Shown: positions 413 through 50,717 of the stretch, piece by piece
Layout: the number at the start of each line of letters is the position of its first letter
How positions within the stretch are numbered: the first letter of the stretch is position 1
From: Corallochytrium limacisporum Hawaii
Lineage: Eukaryota; Protista; Pluriformea
Direction of reading: 5' to 3'
Assembly: GCA_002811645.1 (NCBI GenBank)
Contig: PDIP01000261.1
Location: forward strand, 1-55,582
DNA: 55,582 nt
The notes under the pieces: generated by a model
What the model was told of the DNA's origin: nothing
Database searches by the model: none
Seen by the model: the letters and a program-made list of their open reading frames with translations, nothing else
Program-made: the position numbers and the translations under genes

Positions 413-1261
413 ATGCTGCGAAAGTTGTTTGGAATTGGTAAACGGAACCACAGGCCTATTTCAGTGGCCGACAACAAGCTCATGAGAGCGGTTGGCAAAC
501 CAAACGAAGTCCTGCCACTCCATTTGAACCCGGGCATCAGGATTCAGCGCAATTTCATCTCGCCACTAGAAGAGGAGAAATTGGTGGCTGAATTGCACCA
601 AGTGGTAAACGAATATGGATTGATCAAATTCAATCCTGACCAAGAGCATTTTATCCTCAGTGACAACGGCACGGGACAGATTGACAGAACTGGCGAGCTC
701 TACACTGGGAGAGTAACTGGTCGGCACGAAGACGCAGACCAGATCACAGCACCGTGGGGCTACGCAGACAAATTTAAGAAAACTGAGGTGCCTCCCATGC
801 TGTATCTGGTCATGACCCGATTAATGCAATCAAAAGACTTTTCGCTGGGCAAACCGAGAGACATTAGCGTCAACCATCGAAAAGGAGCACTTTTCAAGCT
901 AGACCCGCGTTGCAACCCGCAAGAGGATGGTCCCAACATTTTTGTACTGAATCTCCTTAGTCCGTTAGTCATCACATTCAGTCCACTCAACCCACAGCGG
1001 TCACAAATAAGAAAAGATCCAGCGCATATCTGCCTCAAGTCTTGGACCGACGAAGACATCGACGTCCTCTTCCAACCCCGCAGCCTCGTGCACTTCACGG
1101 CTGAAGCCAGAAGCAATTGGCAACACGGCATCCGCGTGGGTGTGCTGGCTGATGAACCCTACAATGGTATCTGTGATTGGTTTGGATCCGTGCGCAATTT
1201 GGTGGCTCGACATGAGGAACGATTCTCTGTGGTCTTCACGTTTGGCGCTCCCGAACACTGA
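413..1261 (+). CDS. AlkB-family 2OG-Fe(II) dioxygenase-fold protein (ALKBH7-like), probably catalytically degenerate
   Basis: AlkB-type blocks PGIRIQRNFISPLEEEKL, ISVN, IFVLNLLSPLVITF, LFQPRSLVHFTAEARSNWQHGI and RFSVVF. The HxD position reads RCN. First ATG is at 413; the ORF-track start at 380 is GTG. Confidence 0.7.
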   Translation: MLRKLFGIGKRNHRPISVADNKLMRAVGKPNEVLPLHLNPGIRIQRNFISPLEEEKLVAELHQVVNEYGLIKFNPDQEHFILSDNGTGQIDRTGELYTGRVTGRHEDADQITAPWGYADKFKKTEVPPMLYLVMTRLMQSKDFSLGKPRDISVNHRKGALFKLDPRCNPQEDGPNIFVLNLLSPLVITFSPLNPQRSQIRKDPAHICLKSWTDEDIDVLFQPRSLVHFTAEARSNWQHGIRVGVLADEPYNGICDWFGSVRNLVARHEERFSVVFTFGAPEH

Positions 1262-4416: not shown

Positions 4417-4923
4417 TGTAGCTTGCGTGATCTCCCTTTGTCACATTGTTTAAGGGCAGAGAGCAATGCCATCATCTGTGCTATGGACGAACACCAACGA
4501 AACTCAATCGTTATGAGCGGGTGTAGCCGCTGAAGCACCCGAACTGTCATGTAGTGAGTTACTTATGGAACACTGTGATTTGGCCGTACAGCACCGTTGG
4601 AAATCCCGCGACTGCCCCTGCCACCGCGCGAATTGATGTTGAATTAGGCCCCCCCCCCACCGATATCTATGTTTGGACAAAAACTCGCCCAGCGCACTGC
4701 TGACGAAATTCGTGGTCGTGTAGGCGGGTCGGTAGAAGAAAAACAATTGACATCATGCCTAAGGGACTAGCAGGTACAAGTGTGGAACTTGAAACATGAT
4801 CTGCGTTTCACTGTGGTCAATACCGTATTTTTGTTCGGGTATCACCTGTATACTATACACGCGAGGAAGAATGTGAACTAGGTAGGCATCTTTCCAAGTC
4901 AGTTACACTGGGTAACAGAAAAG

Positions 4924-6192
4924 ATGGACAACCACAATGGACCGTGGCGGTTCTACGTTAAGTGTGCCGAATCAAGGGCAGTGGTACCGATCATGCCGGG
5001 ACAAAAAGTCCAGGAGCTCTTGCAACAAGCCCTAGTGCGGACATCTATGGAGCATAAAGGCTACGCCACCCTCTGGACGGACTCGGGGTTCCTCCTGTCC
5101 AACACTGACAGGGTAATCGATGTCCTTCGACCGCAGGAGACTCTGGTTGCAGGAAAGAATGTATACACACCACCAAACCAATGCAAGGAAGATGGACAGC
5201 TTCAACAGATCCAACCCAGCAGCATTGCTAGTGCCACTCCTGCTGCGCGCACCGCACTTCATCGTTTCCGTAGTGATGAGCGTATGCAGGATAAACTGCC
5301 GGCTTCTATCAGGCGCGAAAATTCAATGCTTACGGAGTCCACAATCGCTCTCGTCCCGGAAGCTTTCACTGCAGACTACCGTATCGTTCTCGTCAGACAT
5401 TGTGAGAGTGCAGGTAACGTAGACCCAGCCCTCTTTGCGAAAACTCCGGATCATGCCATTCCCCTTAGTGCTCGTGGTAGGGATCAGGCGGTTCATACTG
5501 GCCGAGCACTAAACAATTTGCTCCAGGAGCTCTTTGGGGATACTGCACATTGTGGACATATTCGCATGTGGCACAGTCCGTACCTGCGCTGCAAGGAGAC
5601 GGCCATGCGTCTCGCGGACGAGTGCACGACCTGGATTACAGACCTGCGGGAGAACCCATTGTTGGCCGAGCTGGACTACGGTCTCTTCGAAGGCACCGGG
5701 CGCGAAGTGGCAGTGGACATGGGTCGTGAGGTGGAGAAGAAGCACTACGAGGCGCGGGCCAACCAGGCCGGTCGGTTCTGGGCCCGATTTCCGATGGGAG
5801 AATCACCGTTCGATGTTTGCCAGCGCATGCAGATCTTTTTCGGTACGATTGCCCGGGACTGGGTGCCAACGCGAAACAAGAAAAGTCGTACAACGCCAGT
5901 GAACACGGTAATCATTGTAACCCATGGCATTGCATTGCGGTGTTTCATGAAGATGTGGCTTCATCGCAGTGTGGAATGGTACGAGAAGGAGTACAACCCC
6001 AACAATGGTGCCATCCGTCTGATCACCCGCGAAAAGGGAGATATGGGGTATGTTTTCAATGGGTTTGATCCTGACAGTTGCGGGGGTGCGATGCAGGAGG
6101 CGGTCACAGGCACGAGCTTCGCCGAACGACGGGCACAGCCGGACGAATTGCAGATAAAGGAAGGTAAGGTTGAAATCACGGGGGACGTATAG
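4924..6192 (+). CDS. Histidine phosphatase (PGM-like, DET1/AT74 type) with N-terminal Par3/HAL-type ubiquitin-like domain
   Basis: IVLVRHCESAGN (RHG variant), PDHAIPLSARGRDQA, SPYLRCKET, LAELDYG, RFPMGESPFDVCQR and IIVTHG. Residues ~8-76 have a beta-grasp pattern. Confidence 0.85.
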   Translation: MDNHNGPWRFYVKCAESRAVVPIMPGQKVQELLQQALVRTSMEHKGYATLWTDSGFLLSNTDRVIDVLRPQETLVAGKNVYTPPNQCKEDGQLQQIQPSSIASATPAARTALHRFRSDERMQDKLPASIRRENSMLTESTIALVPEAFTADYRIVLVRHCESAGNVDPALFAKTPDHAIPLSARGRDQAVHTGRALNNLLQELFGDTAHCGHIRMWHSPYLRCKETAMRLADECTTWITDLRENPLLAELDYGLFEGTGREVAVDMGREVEKKHYEARANQAGRFWARFPMGESPFDVCQRMQIFFGTIARDWVPTRNKKSRTTPVNTVIIVTHGIALRCFMKMWLHRSVEWYEKEYNPNNGAIRLITREKGDMGYVFNGFDPDSCGGAMQEAVTGTSFAERRAQPDELQIKEGKVEITGDV

Positions 6193-6318
6193 ACGAGGGT
6201 GCTTTGCATTTCAGTGACACGTTTTGATATTAAAGCTATTCCTGCAACAGCCTGACACAACAATCCAAATGAGACGGCGTTTGGATGCGTTCTACGTACT
6301 CTAGATTTAATCAACAAT

Positions 6319-7932
6319 TTACAAAATCTCCAGATCAACGTGCCGCACCTCTGGATCGACGTGTTGGATAATCTTCTCCAGCCTATCCACCTCTTGCCCC
6401 ATCTGATCTATAACCCGCTCCCCATGGTATGACAGCAAATCTTCCGCGTCGGCGGCTGACATGACTTGCTTGAAGTCCTGCAGCATTAGTCCATGATTCA
6501 TGCTATGTGCATACTTGCGCGCAATCTGCTGGCCGTCAAAGTTAATCTCCGCTTTAAATCGCACTGCATTAGTTCCAATCTGAGTGGCTTTCACGTCGTG
6601 AACACTAATGACGACCGGATCTGCACGGATGGCGTCTACAATCATAGCAATACGCGCCTCGTCAATTGACCGTTCAATCAGAGCGTTGGCATTCCGTCGC
6701 ACAAGGAAGACGGCCACCGCTCCAAGCATGGTACCAATGGCAATTGATCCTAGAGAATCCCAAACTGGATTGCCGGTGACGTAGGCTGTACCGATTCCAA
6801 CCGTGGCAATGCCCAGGCCTGAAATGGCCGCACCGTCTTCCGCAAAGACCGCGACATCGTTGGGATCAGTGCCCAGTCGAATATACTGTGAGACAGTCAT
6901 CTTCGCCCGTGTAGCATTCTCCCGGACTTGTTTGAAAGCAATCATGAAGGATCCACCTTCCAGTAGTCCACCCAACGCCAGCATTGGGAATGCCAAGGAC
7001 AGATCCTCTGCCGGCACGGGGTTGATCAGTCCAGTGATTCCATGGTAGACACTGACACCGGAGCCCAGGAAGAAGAACCCCATGCCACTAATCAAGGCCC
7101 AGACATAGCGTTCCTTACTGAAACCATAAGGATATTCCTTGGATGGACCGCGCATGGAGCGCATGATGCCAAAAGCCAGTAACCCCTGGTTGGCTGTGTC
7201 GGCGAGGGAGTGCACTGCCTCGCTGAGCATGGAGGCGGAGCCGGTGGCGAAGAAAGTAATAAACTTCCCCACAGTAATGGCTGCATTGCTTGCCAGGGCT
7301 ACTGCCACGACACGAAGGGATCCTCGCAATTTCTCGTCCGTTTCCAGACGCCGCCTTGGCCCAGGTCCTACAGGATTATCATCAATCAGTGCTGATCGCT
7401 TTTCCCTCATCTGTACTGCTCCTCCAAAGAGCAGTCGAAAAAGGTCGGTAATGCCTCCGCCCATAGGCTCTCTGCGGTGTTCTGGAATCTCATCTGGTGT
7501 GCGATTAGCATCCCTCCGCTTGCGTTCTGCATCCAGACGTGCCTGACTTCCCCATTTAGTCATGGATACCCGCTTGATGTCCTCGAGCTCGTAGAGGTAC
7601 ATAGGGCCTGGTACGCCCATGTATGGTTGTCGTGCCTTCAAGACCTGCAGATTGATTAGATCACCTTCATCCAGACAGAATTGATCCAATGCCTTGTCTT
7701 TGGCAATCAGCCGTGCGTTTGGAGACCTCTGTTTCCGCAGTGCCCCACTGAAGCTGAACTTGGCTTGCTTACCCGCCTCCAAATGCAAGGACCGCACTGG
7801 ATTGCCCAGTCCGTTGTATGTGTGTGTTGGAAAGCATAGCTTCTGGTTCGCTGTCATAGACACTACTATTCCACGCTGCCATCTTTTGACAGCCAAGCCG
7901 AGCCGCCACGGAGTGTTGTACCGGGCCAACAT
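6319..7932 (-). CDS. SLC30A9: Mitochondrial zinc transporter ZnT9 (CDF family with XPA-like domain)
   Basis: Arg-rich presequence-like N-terminus, XPA-like segment (ALDQFCLDEGDL...KWGS), GSASMLSEAVHSLADTANQ, YPYGFSKERY, AEDGAA, RFKAEINFDG and a C-terminal EVRHVDLEIL. Confidence 0.95.
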   Translation of the reverse strand: MLARYNTPWRLGLAVKRWQRGIVVSMTANQKLCFPTHTYNGLGNPVRSLHLEAGKQAKFSFSGALRKQRSPNARLIAKDKALDQFCLDEGDLINLQVLKARQPYMGVPGPMYLYELEDIKRVSMTKWGSQARLDAERKRRDANRTPDEIPEHRREPMGGGITDLFRLLFGGAVQMREKRSALIDDNPVGPGPRRRLETDEKLRGSLRVVAVALASNAAITVGKFITFFATGSASMLSEAVHSLADTANQGLLAFGIMRSMRGPSKEYPYGFSKERYVWALISGMGFFFLGSGVSVYHGITGLINPVPAEDLSLAFPMLALGGLLEGGSFMIAFKQVRENATRAKMTVSQYIRLGTDPNDVAVFAEDGAAISGLGIATVGIGTAYVTGNPVWDSLGSIAIGTMLGAVAVFLVRRNANALIERSIDEARIAMIVDAIRADPVVISVHDVKATQIGTNAVRFKAEINFDGQQIARKYAHSMNHGLMLQDFKQVMSAADAEDLLSYHGERVIDQMGQEVDRLEKIIQHVDPEVRHVDLEIL

Positions 7933-8938
7933 TGCTACCGCCCTGTCTAGAAGTATGGATCCTCAATCACCCATTCTCCATTTCGGTATTTACCATTGTT
8001 ATCACTTTGTCCTTTCCGTTCTGTTTCGTTCCAGATTCATCCCATTCCATCCTGAGCCTGCGTCAAACGAATGACTCATGTGTTTATACCCGTACCGGTG
8101 GGCTAGTAGACCCTTGGGTACAATCCCATTCGTGGGTCAAAAGCCGTAACACGAGTGGCCAGCAACCAGTTTCGATTTCAGGTCCCCACCCCTGACACGC
8201 CTACCCTTGATTCGTCGTGCTGTTCGATACCAAAAACTATGATGGGCTCTGATGGATTAAGGTTATGTAGCCTTCGTTTCACTTACAAAAACTCAAATGG
8301 GGTCCCCGTCGTTGTCGGGGCGGGTTGATGATCTTTTCGCAGCGGCATTGCGTCTGACTGTGTTTCATAATAGCGCGCTACCGTGCCCTGTTACCAATTC
8401 TTCTTTCTAGATCTGCAGCGTGCTCTAAACATTGTTACTTTCCCCTAGGTCCCAATTCTTAATGGCAGCTGAAAAGTGTGGGTGGGAGGGGGCCTGATTT
8501 TCAATGAACCGTTCCCCCCCTTGTGTGCTTTTTGGCGCGAGTTGTCCACGACGGAGTGTCCTCGCAAAACAGCGCATCCCCAGAAGCGGCGAAAGCTGCC
8601 AGCCTGCACCGCGACCGAACGCAATTGAAAAGCGGAGCAGAGAGGCCTCTCATGCGGCCCCTCCTTCTGTTCCGATGGGAAGCATTCAGTGTTTTGCCTT
8701 TTGAATTTAAGGCGGTCCGTGTTTGTTCGGAGTTGAGATCTTTGATGAACTTTATCTTCTTGACCACCTTTATCGTAGAAGCTATGTCATGGAGAGGACG
8801 GGAACACGTGCATTGCAAAGAATGACGTATTGTGACACAGGCGAACAGAAACTATACTGAACCGGAACACGACAACGTCCCAATAGGTGACAATCATAGT
8901 AAAGTATGGTGGTGTAATAGATCACAACCTTACGAACA

Positions 8939-11344: not shown

Positions 11345-12838
11345 CTACGAGCCCTCCCAGCGGGCATGTTCAATCCAAGCTTTGGCCTCCTCACTCACGT
11401 CCAGATGATCCATCTCCATTCCTGCATTAGTTTCGGTACTGATGACATTCTTGGCCTGTACGTAGAGATTGGCTGTGCGAAAGACATCGTAACGTCGCTC
11501 CAGGTCCTCAATCCACGGGTCAAGGGTCCGACGCATCTGATCATGGGTCATGCATAGTGATACAGTGAGGTACTTAGTCTGGTTCTCATCCAGGTTTTCA
11601 ATATGACGAGCCAGTCCTCCATTGTACTCCAAATCCATGACTTCCTTTTCAGGGAAACTGCTCTCAGGAACCTTCAAACGGTAGAAAGGCGTGAGGTAGT
11701 CTCCATGCCAGTGAACATGGGGCCCATCGATCACAGCCTGTAAGGGAGCCTGCTGTTCACTGCCATTCGTCGAATTCTCACAAAGTAGATTCATTAATTT
11801 CTGTTGGTAGAGGACCCCTCCGAACCATTCCACCGGTTCCTTGGACTCCGCCTCTCCGTTATCTCCGTGGTGTAGCTCAGTAGCCGCATCGTCTGGTTCA
11901 ATCTGTGCTGCCTCTTCCGTCTTTCGGCACTCTTCCTCTTCAACCCTTTGCCTCAGCGGGTTCATGTCTAACTCCAGCACCTCTGACTCCAGTTTCTCAT
12001 TCTTTAGGTTTCGCAAGGCTCCTAAGTGAATCTCCTTCTGGGTTGCTCCCTTGGCAACGTTCGCAGGCCGAGGGTTCTGTACCTTCGTGAACCAATATTT
12101 CATGTATGTTGCTTTCCATAGGGGTTCACTACTGCGTCCGAATGTCCGGAGAATCAGTTCTGCTGTACTCCATTCCGGGACCACTCCGGTCTCTTCCATA
12201 TCACATAGCAATTCTAAAGTACTGTCTACCTCTTCACTCTGCTGCGGCCAAATGGCATCCATTAGACCTCGTGTAACATACCGTCCCTTAGGCAAGACGT
12301 CCATCAGGGTCTCGTACATTTCCAGATCCTTCTCAATCCCTGACTCGTTTATCTTGGTCAAAGCAGCATTCATAAAATCGATATTACCGCGCTGGAATGC
12401 GCCGTCCTTGTAAATCCTCAGAAATTGTTTCATACGCGCCGGGTTCTTCTCCGAAGCTACGACATTCAGCGCCTCCAGGGCCCCACTCTCTGTGGGCGTG
12501 GTGTAGATGAAGCGACCGCCACCTGGTCCCAAGCCCTCCTCGCCCAATTCCTTTTCGCGGGGTTTTAGTCCCATAGAATCCAGGAAGTGCACCAGTAGAG
12601 GCTTACGTGACTCTTTTGGCTGCTGTGGCTGCGGCTCGCCGACGGCCTTCTGTTGATGATCCTCGATCGATAGTTCATTTCTATTTCTGTTGTTGCTCTT
12701 CTTGGGCACGTCCGGTGCCGGCTGTGCCTTGAGCTGTCCCGCGGTAATTCTAACATACCGAGTAGAGCCAAGTTTAATCTGAGAAACCACGGTCATGCGC
12801 CCATTCCATGCGCACGCACGCGCCACTGTGTGCAGCAT
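11345..12838 (-). CDS. ECSIT: ECSIT (mitochondrial complex I assembly, MCIA complex)
   Basis: RGNIDFMNAALTKINESGIEKDLEMYETLMDVLPKG...LCDMEETGVVP...FGRSSEP...YWF parallels the ECSIT core ([35 protein letters not shown]...MENHGVMP...FGRKSYP). VIDGPHVHW matches the C-terminal domain. First ATG is at 12838. Confidence 0.88.
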   Translation of the reverse strand: MLHTVARACAWNGRMTVVSQIKLGSTRYVRITAGQLKAQPAPDVPKKSNNRNRNELSIEDHQQKAVGEPQPQQPKESRKPLLVHFLDSMGLKPREKELGEEGLGPGGGRFIYTTPTESGALEALNVVASEKNPARMKQFLRIYKDGAFQRGNIDFMNAALTKINESGIEKDLEMYETLMDVLPKGRYVTRGLMDAIWPQQSEEVDSTLELLCDMEETGVVPEWSTAELILRTFGRSSEPLWKATYMKYWFTKVQNPRPANVAKGATQKEIHLGALRNLKNEKLESEVLELDMNPLRQRVEEEECRKTEEAAQIEPDDAATELHHGDNGEAESKEPVEWFGGVLYQQKLMNLLCENSTNGSEQQAPLQAVIDGPHVHWHGDYLTPFYRLKVPESSFPEKEVMDLEYNGGLARHIENLDENQTKYLTVSLCMTHDQMRRTLDPWIEDLERRYDVFRTANLYVQAKNVISTETNAGMEMDHLDVSEEAKAWIEHARWEGS

Positions 12839-29535: not shown

Positions 29536-31197
29536 TCATGTCCGTCTCAGTTCAAAAACATGTGAATGCCAAGCCTGCAAGCTTACCCACAGGCCCTTAG
29601 ATTGCAATTCCGGTAAGTTACGTTCGTAGACAGTCATGGGCTCCAGTTGATCGACCAGAATGACATTTTCTGACTGCTGCCATCTGCAGGTGTTCAGCGT
29701 TCCATGGCTCAGATCGAGGTCTTCAGGAAAGACAACATGACCGTTTGATTCACTGTCGCTATAATTGACTAATACAAGCAGCCATGACTTGCCCATACCC
29801 ACGAACCGACCAATTAATCGACGATAAGACGGATTGCCATCGCTCGAGGCAGTGATGGACGCTCTCAGAACTTCCCCATGCGTGCACTCTGGCCGGGCCA
29901 GAACCTGCTGAATCAATTTCGAATATATGCCAAAGACTGCACCATTGATTTGCTCCTCACTGCGCATACGTTCGTGCATACTCAGTTGCACACGCCTACC
30001 TTCTATTTGTCCGTCGTGGAAGAAGCGCATTCCGACGCCAGTGTAAGTCACCAAAGCTGCGGCCAGGTGACGCGGTCCACTGCCCAACTCTGCAGCAGCT
30101 CTCGGTTCGTCATGATTCTCTAGAAAGCGACAAAGTTTCGCCTGGTATGAGTCCTCCGCGGAGAGATGTCCGGAAACGTCTCCGGGGCTCTGACTTACGA
30201 GACGGTCATAGAGAGTCTTGTCGTAGCAATAGTCGAAGCCTTGCTGTTGTAGAGTGAATTCCATATCCCAGTAGACCTCTGCGACAAAAATGAACCGGGC
30301 AGGCCGCAGACAGGAAGTCTCACGCTCAGTACCACTACTTGTCAATGACTTATGCTTTAACCATGTGTCCCGCGCCGCAGGAATTGCGCGCTCCCAAAAT
30401 TGTCCGCGTTTCGCACCCTTTTCACCTCTGCTATCAATGGAATAGGGCATGATCCAATCCTCACGGTACTGACTCCACGTTCGCGTGAATACCTCATCCG
30501 TCACGAGCATGGCCATGTCACACCGCACGCCGTCTGCAAGTTCGGCAATGTACTTTAAAATCTTCGTCATTTCCCTTTGGAGCGAAGGGCTAGAGTAATC
30601 CAACTGCGCCGTATCCTTCCAGCCATCGAAGAATGGATCTTTACCGTGCGCACATACGACGCCGGCCTTTCGGCTGAAAAAGTTCTGTGGCTGTTCTTGG
30701 TGCAATGACTCCCCATTGTCCGGACGGAAGATGTAGTCATTGCTGGCCCCACTTTTTACCCAGGGATGATCGATTCCGACGTGATTGGGCACAAAGTCGA
30801 CGATCACTGCCAGGCCCAAGGATTGCAGTTTCTGTCGGAGGGTCCGATACGCTGTGACTCCACCCCATCGGTCGCTAACGTCGTAGGCAATCACTGCGAA
30901 GGGACTCGCTGCCGCATTGCTCTTTTTGCTGTCCTCCAGCACTCGCTCTGAATGCTCCACTGCCGCCGGACCGGTCTGCCAGAGCCCGAGGAGGTAGACG
31001 TAGTGAAAACCCCAGTCCGCAATCTGCTGCCAGTATGTGTCCGGCACAGTGGCCAGGGTCACGTCCTGCATGCCCAGAGTACCTTCCAGGTCAGCGAACA
31101 GAGCTGTGAGGTTGACTTGATAGAGTAACGGATACTTCGGCCATTGTGTCGCAGATGAAGACGACATGTTGTGCTCACCGTTAGCTACCTGTGTCAT
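29536..31197 (-). CDS. GH13 alpha-amylase-family glycoside hydrolase, bacterial-like, no obvious signal peptide
   Basis: DFVPNH, DGVRCDMAM (nucleophile), FVAEVYW (acid/base) and FLENHDEPR. Confidence 0.9.
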   Translation of the reverse strand: MTQVANGEHNMSSSSATQWPKYPLLYQVNLTALFADLEGTLGMQDVTLATVPDTYWQQIADWGFHYVYLLGLWQTGPAAVEHSERVLEDSKKSNAAASPFAVIAYDVSDRWGGVTAYRTLRQKLQSLGLAVIVDFVPNHVGIDHPWVKSGASNDYIFRPDNGESLHQEQPQNFFSRKAGVVCAHGKDPFFDGWKDTAQLDYSSPSLQREMTKILKYIAELADGVRCDMAMLVTDEVFTRTWSQYREDWIMPYSIDSRGEKGAKRGQFWERAIPAARDTWLKHKSLTSSGTERETSCLRPARFIFVAEVYWDMEFTLQQQGFDYCYDKTLYDRLVSQSPGDVSGHLSAEDSYQAKLCRFLENHDEPRAAAELGSGPRHLAAALVTYTGVGMRFFHDGQIEGRRVQLSMHERMRSEEQINGAVFGIYSKLIQQVLARPECTHGEVLRASITASSDGNPSYRRLIGRFVGMGKSWLLVLVNYSDSESNGHVVFPEDLDLSHGTLNTCRWQQSENVILVDQLEPMTVYERNLPELQSKGLWVSLQAWHSHVFELRRT

Positions 31198-32968: not shown

Positions 32969-35900
32969 ATGCGCAACGAAAGCCGGGTCTCTTGTGTCGA
33001 AACACTTGGTACTTGTGAAGGTCCAGTGACATCTCAACGCTCTATAGACGCCCATTACTATTATCTTCCAAAAACCGAGATAGGGATACAGAAGACCTTC
33101 GCTTTATCGCAAGGAACTACCAAAAGCAACGTTCAAACTTCGAAGATTCTCTCGATCAATAACTATACCCAAAAATCAAAAGACACAATGATCTGTGACC
33201 AGCCGATGCAAACTACATCCAATAACACGATGACAATGCCTGAACCTCCACAATACCTACTTTGTCCCCTGACCATGGCTCTCATGGACTGCCCCGTAAC
33301 TGCACAGGACGGCTACACCTACGAAGACCGTGCCATCCGCCAATGGCTGAGCCATTCCGCAACCTCTCCCATAACCCGCCAGCGTATGGATGCCGGGTCA
33401 CTGCTGCCGAACCGCGTTGTTCGCGACCTTACCGAGGACTGGTGTAAGAAGCACGGCATTCAGGGTGTGGAGCCTGCACCCACAGGCCCAGCCATTAATT
33501 TCCTTACCTTGTCCGAGATACAGCTCTCTGAGCAACTTCAGTCGCGACGTGAAGCCGGACTGCGACTGCCAGGGGAATATTGGGCGGCTCTGAAGCAACG
33601 TGGGCAGCAGCAGCAGCGGATTCATCTATCTGTCAACCAGATATTGGCACCAGCAGTAATGACCTCCGTTACAGACTGCAACGGAGTCTTTGAATCCAGC
33701 CATGGTGGTGGAAACTCTGATGTACACTCCCCCACTCTCCCCCACACTGTCCTGCGCCTCGAAACTGTCACTGAAGGTCACCCAACCGAAACGGATTTTG
33801 GTCCGTCGACTGCTGATGTAGTCGATGGTCAGCGCAGAGCCCCCATTGACGTCATCTGCGTCCTCGATATTTCCTCATCTATGGACCGCAGTGCCGCCAT
33901 GGCAGGTGCCGAACTTAATGTCTCTTTTCTTGACCTCGTCCGGCATGCCGCCAAGACTGTGGCGCATCTACTTGGGCCAGACGACCGTCTCGGACTCATA
34001 ACCTTTGGATCCCACGCGACAGTGGCGATGGACCCCGTGCCCATGGACGGTGCAGGTAAGGAACGTGCGGACGCCGTCGTGGAAGCAATTCGCACCGCTG
34101 GTGCGACGAATTTGTGGGCCGGTCTACGCCTTGGCCTGGACCTCGTTGCTGAGCTCCGGACTGTTGATGCCAAGGACGCTGCCAAGTACGGTCTGGCCAG
34201 TACACGCCCGGCCTTCGTCCTACTTCTCACAGATGGAGAGCCGAATCAACGTCCTGCTTCCGGTACTGAAGACGTTGCTATGCTTCGGCACATGCGCAAA
34301 CGGGGTTTGGACACGCAGGGAGGTGTCAGTGTGCACACTTTGGCTTTTGGTTTTGATGCCATAGACACGGAACTGCTGTCCGCCATTGCGCTCAAGGGGC
34401 AGGGCAGTTATGCATACATTCCAGACTCTGGCTTTGTGGGCACAATATTTGCACACGCGGTCGCAAACATGCTCACAACTGCGGTCGTGAATACACGCGT
34501 CTGTTTTGAGTTTGAGAGAGATCCGTCCGCACTGGGCATTGGATCTGACGGTGCATCTCAGTTCACCTCGTCTGCAGTTGAAGACCCAGTGAAGGCTGTA
34601 GGGCCCTGGCCCGACTCTCATCTCGATAGCTGCAACACTGACACGTTCTGGCTCTCCGTGTCACTAGGCGCCCTCCACCATGGACAAGCACGGGAATGCG
34701 TCCTACCTCTGTGGAACCCATGCCTACGTCTGCGTTCAGTACGTGTCGAATACCGATCCGTTGGAGGTTCCATGGCTTTCGACGGCGGTGACGTCGAGGT
34801 GGTAAACGTCGATTTGCGCAACAGGGAGTACGACGATGACTTTCAACTGCTGCACCCCGCTGAAGCGCTGACGGCAGTTGTTCGCGCTACCTTTGCGGAG
34901 GCATTAGTGCGTATTGGCTCCGTCCGCACTGGCGGGAACAATGCCGCAAAGTCTGCGGCCTCCGTGATGGATCGACTACGGGGGCCCTTCTTTGGCAGCG
35001 CAACAGACTTTCCTTGGCCCGCGGAATCTGGTGGTGAACCGCCGCTATCGCACACTGCACGACAGGCGCTTGTCAAGAGGCTCCAAGGGTTAGGCATTGA
35101 CTTCAACGGCGAGATCACAGCCGCGGTCAGTTCGGAGCAGAACTTCAATCGTTGGGGCAGGCACTACTTCCAGAGTCTTGGGCACGCCCACCGCATTCAA
35201 GAGCGTAACAACTTTAAGGACGCGGGCGTTGCAGTATATGGCGGTGCCCTCTTTAAGCGTTTAGTTGAGCTTGGCTCGGACACTTTCGACGACCTCGAGC
35301 CGCCGTCCATACGCGGAAGTCCATACTTTAACCGTGGGGGTCGGTCGATGCAGATCAACCCGACATCCTATGCATCGCTGAATCTTGAGTCGAACCCGTG
35401 TGTCTCCGGAGATACAATGATTGCCGTTCGTGCTGTCAACAAAGGCGGTTCTGCAAATCTGACGCCATTGTTAAAGCGAGCCGACGATCTTCGATCAGGT
35501 GATGTCCTCGCAAACGGCGCAGTGGTTGATTGGGTGCTTCGCACAGTCTTTCCACAACCAACCCTACAGTCCATGACAGCTCTCTACATGGACACCGACA
35601 GACAGCGTGAAGAGATCCTCATCACTCCTTGGCATCCCATCCGTCGTTCTCGACACGACAATGAATTGGACGGCGATGCCATGGTCACCGACGATGAAGA
35701 AGACAGTAATCGAAGCGTCATCAAGCGCCATGTCTTCCCTTGCGAAGCCGTGCCTGCTCAGGCCACCCAGGATCGATGGGTCACTTCTCTCGTCTCAATC
35801 GTCACTCGGCGTAACTCGGCCACGGGCCGCAGACCGGGTGTACCCATCGGTAGTCAAAGTGTAGTTGAAATGGTTAGCCTCGGCCATGGCATCCCTGCCA

Positions 35901-36175
35901 GTGAAGATCCCGTGGCCGCACACCAGTACCTCGGCACAGACCGCATTGTGGGGGATCTACGATTGATATCCGCCGCATTGCTCAGGAATGTTCGAGAGAT
36001 CAGTGTCGGGCCGAACGCTTTAGTACGGTCCACAGAGACCGGACTTGTCGTTGGCATTCGCCCAGATTTCGTTTTGGTACCACCACCAACAATGGTAGCG
36101 GTTCGTGGTCAAGGACAGCCACCAACGCTGCAGCACTCTCCCTGGCAGAGACAGCAGACTCCATGCGGTGTGTGA
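32969..36175 (+). CDS. U-box-VWA-Vwaint-Vint (Hint domain) protein; true start may be ATG 33188
   Basis: U-box (LCPLTMALMDCPV..DGYTYEDRAIRQWL..SPITR..LLPN), VWA MIDAS (LDISSSM, GATN, LLTDGEPN), Vwaint (WGRHYFQSL..AH..QERNNFKDAGV..YG) and Hint (PCVSGDTMI, ITPWHPI, LGHG, HQYLG). Confidence 0.92.
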   Translation: MRNESRVSCVETLGTCEGPVTSQRSIDAHYYYLPKTEIGIQKTFALSQGTTKSNVQTSKILSINNYTQKSKDTMICDQPMQTTSNNTMTMPEPPQYLLCPLTMALMDCPVTAQDGYTYEDRAIRQWLSHSATSPITRQRMDAGSLLPNRVVRDLTEDWCKKHGIQGVEPAPTGPAINFLTLSEIQLSEQLQSRREAGLRLPGEYWAALKQRGQQQQRIHLSVNQILAPAVMTSVTDCNGVFESSHGGGNSDVHSPTLPHTVLRLETVTEGHPTETDFGPSTADVVDGQRRAPIDVICVLDISSSMDRSAAMAGAELNVSFLDLVRHAAKTVAHLLGPDDRLGLITFGSHATVAMDPVPMDGAGKERADAVVEAIRTAGATNLWAGLRLGLDLVAELRTVDAKDAAKYGLASTRPAFVLLLTDGEPNQRPASGTEDVAMLRHMRKRGLDTQGGVSVHTLAFGFDAIDTELLSAIALKGQGSYAYIPDSGFVGTIFAHAVANMLTTAVVNTRVCFEFERDPSALGIGSDGASQFTSSAVEDPVKAVGPWPDSHLDSCNTDTFWLSVSLGALHHGQARECVLPLWNPCLRLRSVRVEYRSVGGSMAFDGGDVEVVNVDLRNREYDDDFQLLHPAEALTAVVRATFAEALVRIGSVRTGGNNAAKSAASVMDRLRGPFFGSATDFPWPAESGGEPPLSHTARQALVKRLQGLGIDFNGEITAAVSSEQNFNRWGRHYFQSLGHAHRIQERNNFKDAGVAVYGGALFKRLVELGSDTFDDLEPPSIRGSPYFNRGGRSMQINPTSYASLNLESNPCVSGDTMIAVRAVNKGGSANLTPLLKRADDLRSGDVLANGAVVDWVLRTVFPQPTLQSMTALYMDTDRQREEILITPWHPIRRSRHDNELDGDAMVTDDEEDSNRSVIKRHVFPCEAVPAQATQDRWVTSLVSIVTRRNSATGRRPGVPIGSQSVVEMVSLGHGIPASEDPVAAHQYLGTDRIVGDLRLISAALLRNVREISVGPNALVRSTETGLVVGIRPDFVLVPPPTMVAVRGQGQPPTLQHSPWQRQQTPCGV

Positions 36176-48638: not shown

Positions 48639-50717
48639 ATGCCTGCCAGAATATCGGAAGCCGATCTAAACGCTGGGCAGCCCTACCATGGTGGCGAACG
48701 ATACATGCAACACCTGCACGGCTCAGTGACTACCAGCAATGAATTTGGCCCAATCATCTATCACAAACTCATTCCTGGCCCCTTCATGGACATGGTAGAT
48801 CGCCAACCACATTTCATGGTCTGTTTCTGGGATGCAGAGCACGAACTGCTCTGGCCTTCTGCGCTCTTTGGTGTTCCAGGATTTGCTGATCCGTACGCAA
48901 GCAAGGGAAAACGAATTGACTTCGCCACCGGCCTCGATCCGCGGGATGGTGCGTTGGTCAGCGGTGCACTGAAGGAGGGCACACTCGTTGGGGGAGTACA
49001 GATAGACTTCACAAATCGTCGACGTAATCGGTTCAACGGTGTAGTCACGAATGTACAGAATGGTACCGGTGATCATGATACAGAGGCCCTTAAACAAGCC
49101 CGTTTTAGCATGGAAATCACTCAAGCCTTTGGTAACTGTCCCAAATACATCACCCGTCGCAGGGCTGAGGATGTCCCGACGCCTACAACCATTGGCTTCG
49201 CATCGCTTCAGGCTGATTATCGACAGCGACAGCTACAACTCGCTGCCGAACACCCCGCGGTACAGACCAAAGTAGAGCCTTTGAGGCCGCATCAGATCAA
49301 CCTAATCACTCAAACAGATTTGATCTACCTCGCATCCGTCAATCCAGGTGCCAACGATTATTCCGAAGGCTGTGATATGAACTCTCGTGGCGGTGATCCA
49401 GGCTTCATGCGTGTTATCAATGGCGGGCGAGCCATCTGTTGGCCAGACTATGTGGGTAATGGCATGTACATGAGTCTGGGCAACATCCACGCAAACCGTA
49501 GCGCCGGAGTTCTCGTTGTGGACTGGGACGGCAAAGACGGAGGGCGGGCACTGCAGTTGGTCGGATCTGCACGCTTACTGGAACGCAGCGCGATACTCAA
49601 AGGGAACGAACACGAAAACGGTGTAAATGACAATCCTGAGCAGGCAGAGTTGGCTGCGATTCTGTCCGAAGAGCCACAGGCACTGCGTCTCATCGTTCTT
49701 GATCTCGCAGTTGTTCGCGATGTGCCGCACTATCTGCCACACCGCTACCGTACCGTCGAGCTGTCACCATATAATCCGAAACGCGTTGGTGCCGATTCAA
49801 ATCAACCACAGACCCGAGCGATTCTGCAATGGTCGAAGCCAGCGAACGAGAGCGGATCGATTCGCACCTTTGAGTTCCAACTCGCACGCGTTCCACGGCC
49901 CGGGACAGTCATTCTTCGAAGTGGGCAGCATGTCCGCTTGCGCATTCCACACATTACCGACCGCAGCACTGGGCAGCCCCCAGAACGGACGTGGACAGTA
50001 ACAAGCGATCCAAATTGGTTTTCAGTACATGGACGATTTCAGATTACTGTCCGCAACGCTGGTGAAGAAAAAGGATTCGTCAGTCCATGGCTCCATACTA
50101 CCGCTAAGGACACCGAGGACAGACCATACGATCCTCTCCGGGCCGTTGAATTCCTTGGATTCAGTGGAGAATTCAGTCCTCTCCTTGACGCTGCGCAGGA
50201 CTTTGAAGGATATGTCCCCCCATCGGCCCTCCCAGACACCCTAATATGGTTCACGGGAGGTGTCGGCATCACGCCTGCACTTGCCTTTCTGAGTTGCCTG
50301 AGCTGGTACTTTGAGTACGAACTGGGGAAGCACAAGGCGCAGGACGTCAGTCTCAAAACTGTCACACTATTCCACAGTGCCGCAACTCTCGAAGATGTTG
50401 CAAGGCTGTCGGATCTGGCCAGCGCCAAGGTTCGCTTAGCAGAGTGTGGGATCCGTCTTCGTGTCGTACTGAATTTGACGCGGGCGAAAGAGCTCCCGAA
50501 GGCCGTACAGGAAGACTCTGTCTTGTCACAGATGACGGTCCACCAGGGGCGGCTCAATGGTGACCAGTTGAAGAGTGGACTGGACGGCGTTCAGGGCAAA
50601 GAGATGCGCATCTTCCTGTGCGGACCCAAGCCATTTGAACTTGGCGTACAGCAACTCATGGACGTCACTCCAGTCCTCAAAGGCAAGCCATTGGAGACCG
50701 AGAGCTTTGCATACTAG
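48639..50717 (+). CDS. Tandem pyridoxamine-5'-phosphate-oxidase-like domains fused to an FNR-type FAD/NAD-binding reductase
   Basis: PYHGGERYMQ, IDFTNRRRNRFNG, FGNCPKYI, SRGGDPGF, WPDYVGNGMY.SLGN, RTWTVTS, GGVGITP and FLCGP...ESFAY. Confidence 0.9.
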   Translation: MPARISEADLNAGQPYHGGERYMQHLHGSVTTSNEFGPIIYHKLIPGPFMDMVDRQPHFMVCFWDAEHELLWPSALFGVPGFADPYASKGKRIDFATGLDPRDGALVSGALKEGTLVGGVQIDFTNRRRNRFNGVVTNVQNGTGDHDTEALKQARFSMEITQAFGNCPKYITRRRAEDVPTPTTIGFASLQADYRQRQLQLAAEHPAVQTKVEPLRPHQINLITQTDLIYLASVNPGANDYSEGCDMNSRGGDPGFMRVINGGRAICWPDYVGNGMYMSLGNIHANRSAGVLVVDWDGKDGGRALQLVGSARLLERSAILKGNEHENGVNDNPEQAELAAILSEEPQALRLIVLDLAVVRDVPHYLPHRYRTVELSPYNPKRVGADSNQPQTRAILQWSKPANESGSIRTFEFQLARVPRPGTVILRSGQHVRLRIPHITDRSTGQPPERTWTVTSDPNWFSVHGRFQITVRNAGEEKGFVSPWLHTTAKDTEDRPYDPLRAVEFLGFSGEFSPLLDAAQDFEGYVPPSALPDTLIWFTGGVGITPALAFLSCLSWYFEYELGKHKAQDVSLKTVTLFHSAATLEDVARLSDLASAKVRLAECGIRLRVVLNLTRAKELPKAVQEDSVLSQMTVHQGRLNGDQLKSGLDGVQGKEMRIFLCGPKPFELGVQQLMDVTPVLKGKPLETESFAY

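What the first reader, a model, noticed from the sequence alone, without database searches (positions are those of the whole stretch)
4945..6192. Par3/HAL-type N-terminal domain fused to a DET1-like histidine phosphatase
Seen: residues ~9-76 read FYVKCAESRAVVPIMPGQKVQELLQQALVRT...DSGFLLSNTDRVIDVLRPQETLVAG. Known: by eye this aligns with the Par-3 CR1/HAL N-terminal beta-grasp domain (RVVVP, KVFSLIQQAVTRY, DGGILDLDDILCDV...LVAV), which self-polymerises in Par-3; the TONSL UBL is related. Inference: a filament- or condensate-forming phosphatase, an architecture I do not recognise, and a possible pre-metazoan use of the polarity oligomerisation module. The phosphatase motif is also atypical (RHCES instead of RHGES).
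Basis: partly seen in the sequence, partly recalled or inferred. Interest (0 to 1): 0.75.

Follow-up and report, generated by a model that had tools for sequence, protein, structure and literature searches.

The report
Par3-type self-association domain on a phosphatase
A single-celled relative of animals (lineage inferred) has a gene joining a phosphatase-family enzyme to a small ubiquitin-shaped domain related to the chain-forming head of the animal polarity protein Par-3; the domain is predicted to stack head-to-tail and would cluster the enzyme, but this is untested and one residue Par-3 needs for chaining is reversed.

Summary
Residues 8-78 are a beta-grasp domain of the Par3-NTD/HAL/TONSL-UBL family: Pfam PF12053 17.1 bits (under the 21-bit cut-off), a two-sequence profile ranks Par3 NTD and TONSL UBL as its top five PDB hits, and the AlphaFold model is beta-grasp. 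Residues 151-385 are a branch-1 histidine phosphatase with all catalytic residues. The same fusion occurs in Creolimax and in none of 153 other homologues examined. A three-copy fold prediction gives an asymmetric head-to-tail interface (0.47, best control 0.02) centred on V20 (= Par3 V13), on the faces that close TONSL rings; it may be recalled from solved Par3. Against filaments: Par3 D70, whose change to Lys blocks polymers, aligns to R69. RHCES is not unusual (Cys in 6, Ala in 14 of 105 rows). DET1 orthology was not shown. The domain also occurs outside Holozoa, so it says little about Par3's origin. Side result: 10 of 149 relatives carry an N-terminal SAM domain instead, in a separate clade. 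Verdict: new architecture from known parts; self-association about even odds, long filaments less likely.

The parts
4924..6192 (+). Single open reading frame, 422 aa: beta-grasp domain, disordered linker, histidine phosphatase, short tail
   Evidence: contigs of two runs bridge it without gaps or joints
4945..5157 (+). Par3-NTD/HAL/TONSL-UBL family beta-grasp domain (aa 8-78)
   Evidence: PF12053 17.1 bits; profile hits to 4i6p, 3zee, 9wvh; model strands/helices E8-14 E17-23 H29-39 E48-52 H64-67 E73-78; Z 10.2 to Par3 NTD 4i6p
4942..4989 (+). Predicted self-association face B (beta1-beta2; aa 7-22, with 39-41 and 71); holds R9 (= Par3 K2, TONSL R934) and V20 (= Par3 V13)
   Evidence: prediction; equivalences read
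5074..5130 (+). Predicted self-association face A (beta3-beta4 hairpin and helix 2; aa 51-69); holds R69 at the position of Par3 D70
   Evidence: prediction; equivalences read
5158..5373 (+). Low-confidence, probably disordered linker (aa 79-150), not conserved with Creolimax
   Evidence: pLDDT under 50 over 80-126; shuffle z 0.2; three missense differences in run X2 fall here
5374..6078 (+). Branch-1 histidine phosphatase domain (aa 151-385) with R158, H159, N165, R222, E249, H334
   Evidence: pLDDT mostly above 90; Z 19.8 to fructose-2,6-bisphosphatase 1c7z
5395..5409 (+). RHCES motif (aa 158-162), a common variant of RHG in this subfamily

Best explanation
The gene encodes a histidine-phosphatase-family enzyme, likely active, tied by a probably flexible 70-residue linker to a Par3/TONSL/HAL-type ubiquitin-fold domain that is predicted to bind copies of itself head-to-tail, which would gather the enzyme into short chains or rings. 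Steps: (1) shown by sequence: domain order and catalytic residues. (2) From family knowledge: H159 attacks the substrate phosphate to form a phosphohistidine, R158/R222/H334 hold the phosphate and E249 acts as acid/base (roles other than the His recalled); substrate unknown. (3) Predicted: strand beta2 (R18-A19-V20) of one copy pairs with strand beta4 (F56-L57-L58) of the next, with P22/Y11 packing on V67/L68; the two faces differ, so the contact can repeat. (4) Inferred: because the Par3 acidic patch is largely lost, assembly would be hydrophobic and TONSL-like (closed or short) rather than the salt-sensitive long Par3 filament. (5) Inferred: clustering raises local enzyme concentration or avidity for a scaffold.
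For: Family assignment. Conserved fusion: Creolimax CFRG4643T1 has the same order; the two phosphatase domains are sisters, SH-aLRT 99; their N-domains are alike beyond shuffles (13 of 5000 reach the score) while linker and tail are not. Three-copy ESMFold2: score 0.47, best of 3 controls 0.02, runs agree in at least 90% of contacts, partner pLDDT at least 86; the mark was reached by 21 of 30 solved microbial pairs and 0 of 23 single chains, and in eukaryotes by 17 of 29 pairs (only 1 of 7 without an older solved relative) and 0 of 30 single chains; calibration used two copies, not three. The predicted faces match the TONSL inter-dimer contact: R981/G984/A985/L986 (= T52/G55/F56/L57) with Q940/H942/L943 (= A15/S17/R18) (PMC13418528 section 9; equivalences), and V20 = Par3 V13, whose change to Asp blocks polymers (PMC5583741). 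Predicted interface positions are more conserved with Creolimax than the rest (12 of 26 vs 8 of 44, one-sided p 0.014). Both family members with solved structures self-associate. A separate clade of the same phosphatase subfamily carries an N-terminal SAM domain (10 of 149).
Against: Par3 D70 aligns to R69 here and S73 in Creolimax; D70K abolishes Par3 oligomers. Par3 D60, D62 align to S59, T61 and R9 to E16. TONSL E1002 (partner of R934 in the swapped dimer) aligns to T73. Like complexes are solved (Par3 NTD), so the complex pass may be memory. Several 'interface' positions in the conservation count are also core residues of the fold, and the alignment has two sequences. PF12053 is below cut-off. 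Not all SAM domains polymerise (recalled). No enzyme assay or substrate evidence; no NCBIfam model reaches its cut-off.
Confidence: 0.5

Rival explanations
1. The N-terminal domain is a monomeric docking module that binds a different protein (another Par3/HAL/TONSL-type or PB1-type domain, or a small GTPase), recruiting the phosphatase; the natural Arg at the D70 position leaves only one working face, as in Par3 D70K, which still heterodimerises with V13D.
For: R69/S73 at the D70 position in both orthologues; basic-face residues R9 and V20 kept in both; heterodimer of the two Par3 mutants described in PMC5583741; weak RBD match 15.4 bits, E 0.018.
Against: Self-complex prediction passes against controls; face A residues G55, L58, D62, D66, V67, L68 are kept in both orthologues. 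No second copy of the domain in this window; the whole genome was not available.
Confidence: 0.3
2. The domain forms long Par3-like helical filaments and drives condensates of the phosphatase.
For: Asymmetric, repeatable predicted interface; best profile hit is Par3 NTD; 28% identity to 4i6p, the highest among the beta-grasp rows; E16 and R69 replace Par3 R9 and D70, which could be a charge swap (inference; the Par3 salt-bridge partners could not be read, the primary papers are not held).
Against: Loss of D70, D60, D62 equivalents; in the model face A residues 66-68 touch R9/V20/P22 and E16 is not listed in the interface, so R69 would more probably lie near R9 (inference); a three-copy model cannot show a filament.
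Confidence: 0.2
3. The phosphatase is a catalytically weak or dead scaffold and RHC marks that loss.
For: Only the Gly-to-Cys change.
Against: R158, H159, N165, R222, E249, H334 are present and conserved in 103-105 of 105 rows; position 160 is not Gly in 25 of the 103 rows with a residue there; Creolimax keeps RHG.
Confidence: 0.05

Closest known systems
Par-3/Bazooka N-terminal domain (CR1; Pfam PF12053; PDB 4I6P, 3ZEE, 2NS5)
   Same: Beta-grasp at the extreme N-terminus; K2, R11, V13, P15, G56, D63, D67, D73 positions kept (R9, R18, V20, P22, G55, D62, D66, E72); predicted head-to-tail contact around V20.
   Different: D70 is Arg, D60/D62 are Ser/Thr, R9 is Glu; fused to an enzyme, no PDZ domains; PF12053 score under cut-off; no link to polarity shown.
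TONSL ubiquitin-like domain (PDB 9WVH, 9WVI; PMC13418528)
   Same: Profile hit E 0.0057; R934 position kept (R9), acidic residue at D941 (E16); predicted faces coincide with the TONSL inter-dimer contact that closes its rings in the crystal.
   Different: E1002 position is Thr; no evidence for a beta1 domain swap; TONSL's domain is internal in a DNA-repair scaffold.
Histidine ammonia-lyase with Par3/HAL N-terminal domain (Pfam description)
   Same: The same domain family placed in front of a metabolic enzyme.
   Different: Unrelated catalytic domain; no HAL sequence was retrieved or compared here.
Yeast Det1 (YDR051c), broad-range acid phosphatase of the histidine phosphatase superfamily (PMC2737285)
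   Same: Branch-1 histidine phosphatase, RHx motif.
   Different: No Det1 sequence was returned by any search, so orthology is untested; this protein sits in a 34-row clade (SH-aLRT 99) whose named members are protists (Salpingoeca, Amorphochlora, Pterocystis, Jenningsia).
SAM-domain + histidine phosphatase proteins (P0021, P0023 Balamuthia, P0056 Arcella, P0101 Echinamoeba and others)
   Same: Same phosphatase subfamily with a small N-terminal interaction domain of a class that can polymerise head-to-tail.
   Different: Unrelated fold; separate clade (SH-aLRT 96), so an independent fusion.

Membership tests
Par3_HAL_N_term (PF12053) / Par3-TONSL-HAL UBL family | Pfam gathering score of 21 bits | tested here: not met
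   17.1 bits (aa 1-89) and 16.9 bits (Creolimax); best non-phosphatase family in both the fragment and the orthologue. Filed as a distant relative of the family, not a curated member.
Par3_HAL_N_term (PF12053) / Par3-TONSL-HAL UBL family | Sequence kinship to solved members above other folds | tested here: met
   Profile A1: top 5 of 177,635 PDB sequences are Par3 NTD and TONSL UBL, E 0.0019-0.057
Par3_HAL_N_term (PF12053) / Par3-TONSL-HAL UBL family | Beta-grasp fold | tested here: met
   Full-length model, aa 6-81 Z 9.9-11.2 to ubiquitin-like folds; Par3 NTD Z 10.2, rmsd 3.1, 76 aligned, tied with generic UBLs. The domain folded alone was poor and matched nothing clear.
Par3-type head-to-tail polymer | Val at position 13 (V13D blocks assembly) | tested here: met
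   V20; V13 in Creolimax
Par3-type head-to-tail polymer | Asp at position 70 and two acidic patches opposite two basic patches | tested here: not met
   R69 (Ser in Creolimax); D60, D62 positions are S59, T61
Par3-type head-to-tail polymer | Asymmetric self-interface | tested here: inconclusive
   Predicted, 0.47 vs best control 0.02, possibly from memory of solved Par3
Par3-type head-to-tail polymer | Filaments in EM, salt-sensitive oligomers | not testable with these tools
   needs protein
Par3/Bazooka orthologue | PDZ domains after CR1 | tested here: not met
   Only His_Phos_1 follows
Histidine phosphatase superfamily, branch 1 (PF00300) | Pfam score above cut-off and fold | tested here: met
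   74.3 bits vs 21.7; Z up to 19.8
Histidine phosphatase superfamily, branch 1 (PF00300) | Catalytic Arg-His, second Arg, acid residue, second His | tested here: met
   R158, H159, R222, E249, H334
Histidine phosphatase superfamily, branch 1 (PF00300) | Phosphatase activity and substrate | not testable with these tools
   needs assay
DET1 orthologue | Clade with yeast Det1 | tested here: inconclusive
   No row of the 150-row tree was named Det1 (27 of the representatives plus P0003 and two others were looked up); orthology neither shown nor excluded

The most novel reading that the evidence does not exclude
This protist phosphatase subfamily is repeatedly wired to polymerising heads (a Par3-type beta-grasp in early holozoans, SAM in amoebae), making it a self-assembling, condensate-forming phosphatase; the holozoan domain polymerises through the beta2-beta4 surface shared by Par3 and TONSL without the Par3 acidic patch, showing that head-to-tail assembly is the ancestral property of the whole family and was available before Par3 arose in animals.
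Probability: 0.2. Interest if true: 0.7.

Novelty: new variant of a known kind. Interest (0 to 1): 0.45.

Why it matters
The Par complex is considered an animal innovation (PMC5968619, passage). A natural variant of the Par3 oligomerisation domain in a unicellular holozoan, carrying Arg where Par3 needs Asp70, is a ready-made test of what the family's ancestral assembly mode was and of which residues turned it into a filament. It also offers a small, soluble case of an enzyme whose clustering may be set by an add-on head, with an independent SAM-headed counterpart for comparison. If the domain proves monomeric, the finding reduces to one more lineage-restricted fusion of a mobile ubiquitin-like domain.

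Tried and rejected
Assembly or annotation artefact: rejected; one open frame, same fusion in Creolimax, contigs of two runs bridge both domains. No RNA holder listed (both runs only guessed RNA), so expression is not claimed. phmmer of the whole protein against PDB: 0 hits at E 1; window domain alone: one chance hit; Creolimax domain alone: TONSL E 0.11. AlphaFold of aa 1-83 with a two-sequence alignment: pLDDT 58, last strand unformed; Foldseek and VIA gave nothing meaningful. Searches for more copies of the domain or fusion: word-index searches with Creolimax aa 1-85 and with profile A1 returned only the two queries (weak evidence of absence); profile A1 found no third member among 155 proteins, in six frames of the window, or in 12 metagenome loci; first metagenome scan found no relative. 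Only the best 150 of 1995 representatives were seen, and relatives within 50% identity of the query are hidden behind it. N-termini of P0055 and P0059 looked PB1-like by eye but had no Pfam support: dropped. The Atlas gave only leads under 0.9 for named families, all ubiquitin-fold. No whole genome was available, so paralogues and partner domains elsewhere in the organism are untested. Literature searches: 'Par3_HAL_N_term' 0 papers; Par3 + histidine ammonia lyase + N-terminal domain + oligomerization 0; TONSL + ubiquitin-like domain + Par3 0; 'PF12053' 1 listing, a weevil genome, not read; listings showed no title on this fusion. Feng 2007 and Zhang 2013 are not held, so Par3 salt-bridge partners are not verified. 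No supplements were read.

Full report
Observation. The stretch is one open frame on the + strand, 4924-6192, 422 aa. Contigs from two public runs (guessed RNA, may be DNA) cover 4839-7915 and 4842-8063 without gaps or joints; one differs from the window at five ORF positions, three missense in the linker (aa 98, 102, 131) and two silent, none in the N-terminal domain. The window is eukaryotic and intron-poor, with long single-ORF genes (WAC/DDT chromatin factor, ECSIT, cation efflux). The nearest named relative is Creolimax fragrantissima CFRG4643T1. An intron-free genome with an ichthyosporean sister sequence fits a Corallochytrium-like unicellular holozoan (PMC5560861, passage: 0.0 introns per CDS kb in Corallochytrium). 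This lineage is my inference.

The N-terminal domain. Pfam gives PF12053 at 17.1 bits on aa 1-89, under the 21-bit cut-off. The Creolimax protein has the same order and independently scores 16.9 bits at aa 1-78. The two N-termini are alike beyond shuffling (13 of 5000 shuffles reach the score) while linkers and tails are not (1995 and 2301 of 5000). A profile of the two ranks Par3 NTD (4i6p E 0.0019, 3zee, 2ns5) and TONSL UBL (9wvh E 0.0057, 9wvi) as its top five of 177,635 PDB sequences; the sixth is E 1.4. In the full-length AlphaFold model aa 8-78 form a complete beta-grasp (block pLDDT about 59-77), aa 80-134 are mostly under 50, and the phosphatase is mostly above 90. Structure search aligns aa 6-81 to ubiquitin-like folds at Z 9.9-11.2; Par3 NTD is tied among them (Z 10.2, rmsd 3.1, 76 aligned) but has the highest identity, 28% against 9-18%. 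The domain folded alone was poor and matched nothing. So: a distant relative of the Par3/HAL/TONSL family; fold alone does not single it out from generic UBLs, sequence does.

The phosphatase. His_Phos_1 scores 74.3 bits. In a 105-row alignment R158 and H159 are in 103 rows (2 gaps), N165, E249 and H334 in 105, R222 in 104; the residue after RH is G in 78, A in 14, C in 6. RHCES is therefore an ordinary variant. That the His is transiently phosphorylated and that most members are phosphatases is from PMC2737285 (passages); roles of the other residues are recalled. No NCBIfam model reaches its cut-off, so the substrate is open. In a 150-row tree (four rows dropped for length range, the triple-domain P0014 and six cluster members left out) the window and Creolimax domains are sisters (SH-aLRT 99) within a 34-row clade (99) whose named members are protists: Salpingoeca kvevrii, Amorphochlora, Pterocystis, Jenningsia. 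The choanoflagellate relative lacks the beta-grasp and has a short hydrophobic N-terminus. No row was named Det1; 'DET1-like' is a superfamily-level label here.

How common is the fusion? Profile A1 finds the domain in 2 of 155 proteins held; Pfam finds PF12053 in 0 of 149 other representatives at E 0.01; two word-index searches and 12 metagenome loci add none. Limits: only 150 of 1995 representatives were listed and close relatives are hidden behind the query. The domain itself is not confined to Holozoa: an Atlas cluster with PF12053 on 31% of 70 members is commonest in Euglenozoa (score 0.88, a lead only); the TONSL paper aligns an Arabidopsis sequence; earlier unchecked notes report it in Naegleria and a fungus. 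It looks like a mobile eukaryotic module, so the fusion is not evidence on Par3's ancestry, though the Par complex is considered a metazoan innovation (PMC5968619, passage).

Does it self-associate? Par3 CR1 forms salt-sensitive head-to-tail helical filaments that V13D or D70K abolish (PMC5583741 section 4) and drives Par condensates (PMC7211019, passages). TONSL UBL forms domain-swapped dimers that pack into rings in the crystal (PMC13418528, abstract, passages and section 9). Reading equivalences: Par3 K2, R11, V13, D63, D67, D73 are kept (R9, R18, V20, D62, D66, E72), but D70 is R69 (Ser in Creolimax), D60 and D62 are S59 and T61, and R9 is E16. TONSL R934 is kept (R9), E1002 is T73. Three copies of aa 1-83 folded by ESMFold2 scored 0.47 against a best control of 0.02, with runs agreeing in at least 90% of contacts and partner pLDDT at least 86. 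The mark was reached by 21 of 30 solved microbial pairs and 0 of 23 single chains; in eukaryotes by 17 of 29 pairs, only 1 of 7 without an older solved relative, and 0 of 30 single chains; the calibration held two copies. Since Par3 NTD polymers are solved, the pass may be memory. The interface is asymmetric: aa 51-52, 54-59, 62, 65-69, 80-81 of one copy on aa 7, 9, 11-12, 17-20, 22, 39-41, 71 of another, V20 at the centre. These are the faces of the TONSL inter-dimer contact (loops 983-987 and 993-997 = aa 54-58 and 64-68; Q940/H942/L943 = aa 15/17/18). Interface positions are more conserved with Creolimax than the rest (12 of 26 vs 8 of 44, p 0.014; P7 and 80-81 not counted), but many are also fold-core residues. 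On balance, self-association through this surface is about even odds; a long Par3-like filament is less likely because the acidic patch is eroded, and a one-faced docking role remains open.

A parallel. Ten of 149 representatives carry an N-terminal SAM domain (nine above a Pfam cut-off), all inside one 17-row clade (SH-aLRT 96) apart from the window's clade; named members are Balamuthia, Arcella and Echinamoeba (Amoebozoa, recalled). SAM and DIX/PB1 are described as the known head-to-tail polymerising domain classes besides VEL (PMC7614096, passages). Two independent fusions of small interaction heads to one phosphatase subfamily is suggestive, not proof; three relatives have EF-hand matches instead (two below cut-off).

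Verdict. A real, expressed-looking (expression not shown), lineage-restricted architecture built from two known families; I found no description of it in the searches listed. New variant of a known kind; interest 0.45.

Noticed in passing
proteins P0021, P0022, P0023, P0033, P0040, P0045, P0051, P0056, P0058, P0101: SAM domain + histidine phosphatase fusion in one clade, named members amoebae; an independent fusion of the same phosphatase subfamily to a potentially polymerising head.
   Followed up: partly
proteins P0009, P0010, P0063: C-terminal EF-hand matches on the same phosphatase subfamily (strong in P0063, below cut-off in the other two); possible calcium regulation.
   Followed up: no
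protein P0014: 1073-aa protein with three His_Phos_1 stretches whose first motifs look degenerate.
   Followed up: no
proteins P0055 (aa 30-145), P0059 (aa 1-112): N-terminal extensions share a Y-[WY]-D-P motif and look PB1-like by eye; no Pfam support.
   Followed up: partly
window 413-1261 (+): 282-aa ORF with no Pfam hit; by eye resembles an AlkB/ALKBH7-type dioxygenase (recalled) without an obvious HxD iron motif.
   Followed up: no
window 6192-6319: The phosphatase gene and a convergent cation-efflux gene (6319-7932, -) end 126 bp apart and lie on one contig in both runs; overlapping 3' ends are possible, not shown.
   Followed up: no
window 11345-12838 (-): ECSIT homologue (PF06239 95 bits) in a unicellular genome.
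   Followed up: no
window 32969-36175 (+): 1068-aa ORF that by eye reads as U-box + von Willebrand A + Hint-like C-terminus (recalled motifs; not scanned).
   Followed up: no
window 29536-31197 (-) and 48639-50717 (+): Intronless genes that by eye resemble a bacterial-type alpha-amylase and a pyridoxamine-oxidase/FAD-NAD oxidoreductase fusion; possible transfers, not tested.
   Followed up: no
window about 1480-1540: Run of N (assembly gap), seen as X in the ORF at 1152-1556.
   Followed up: no
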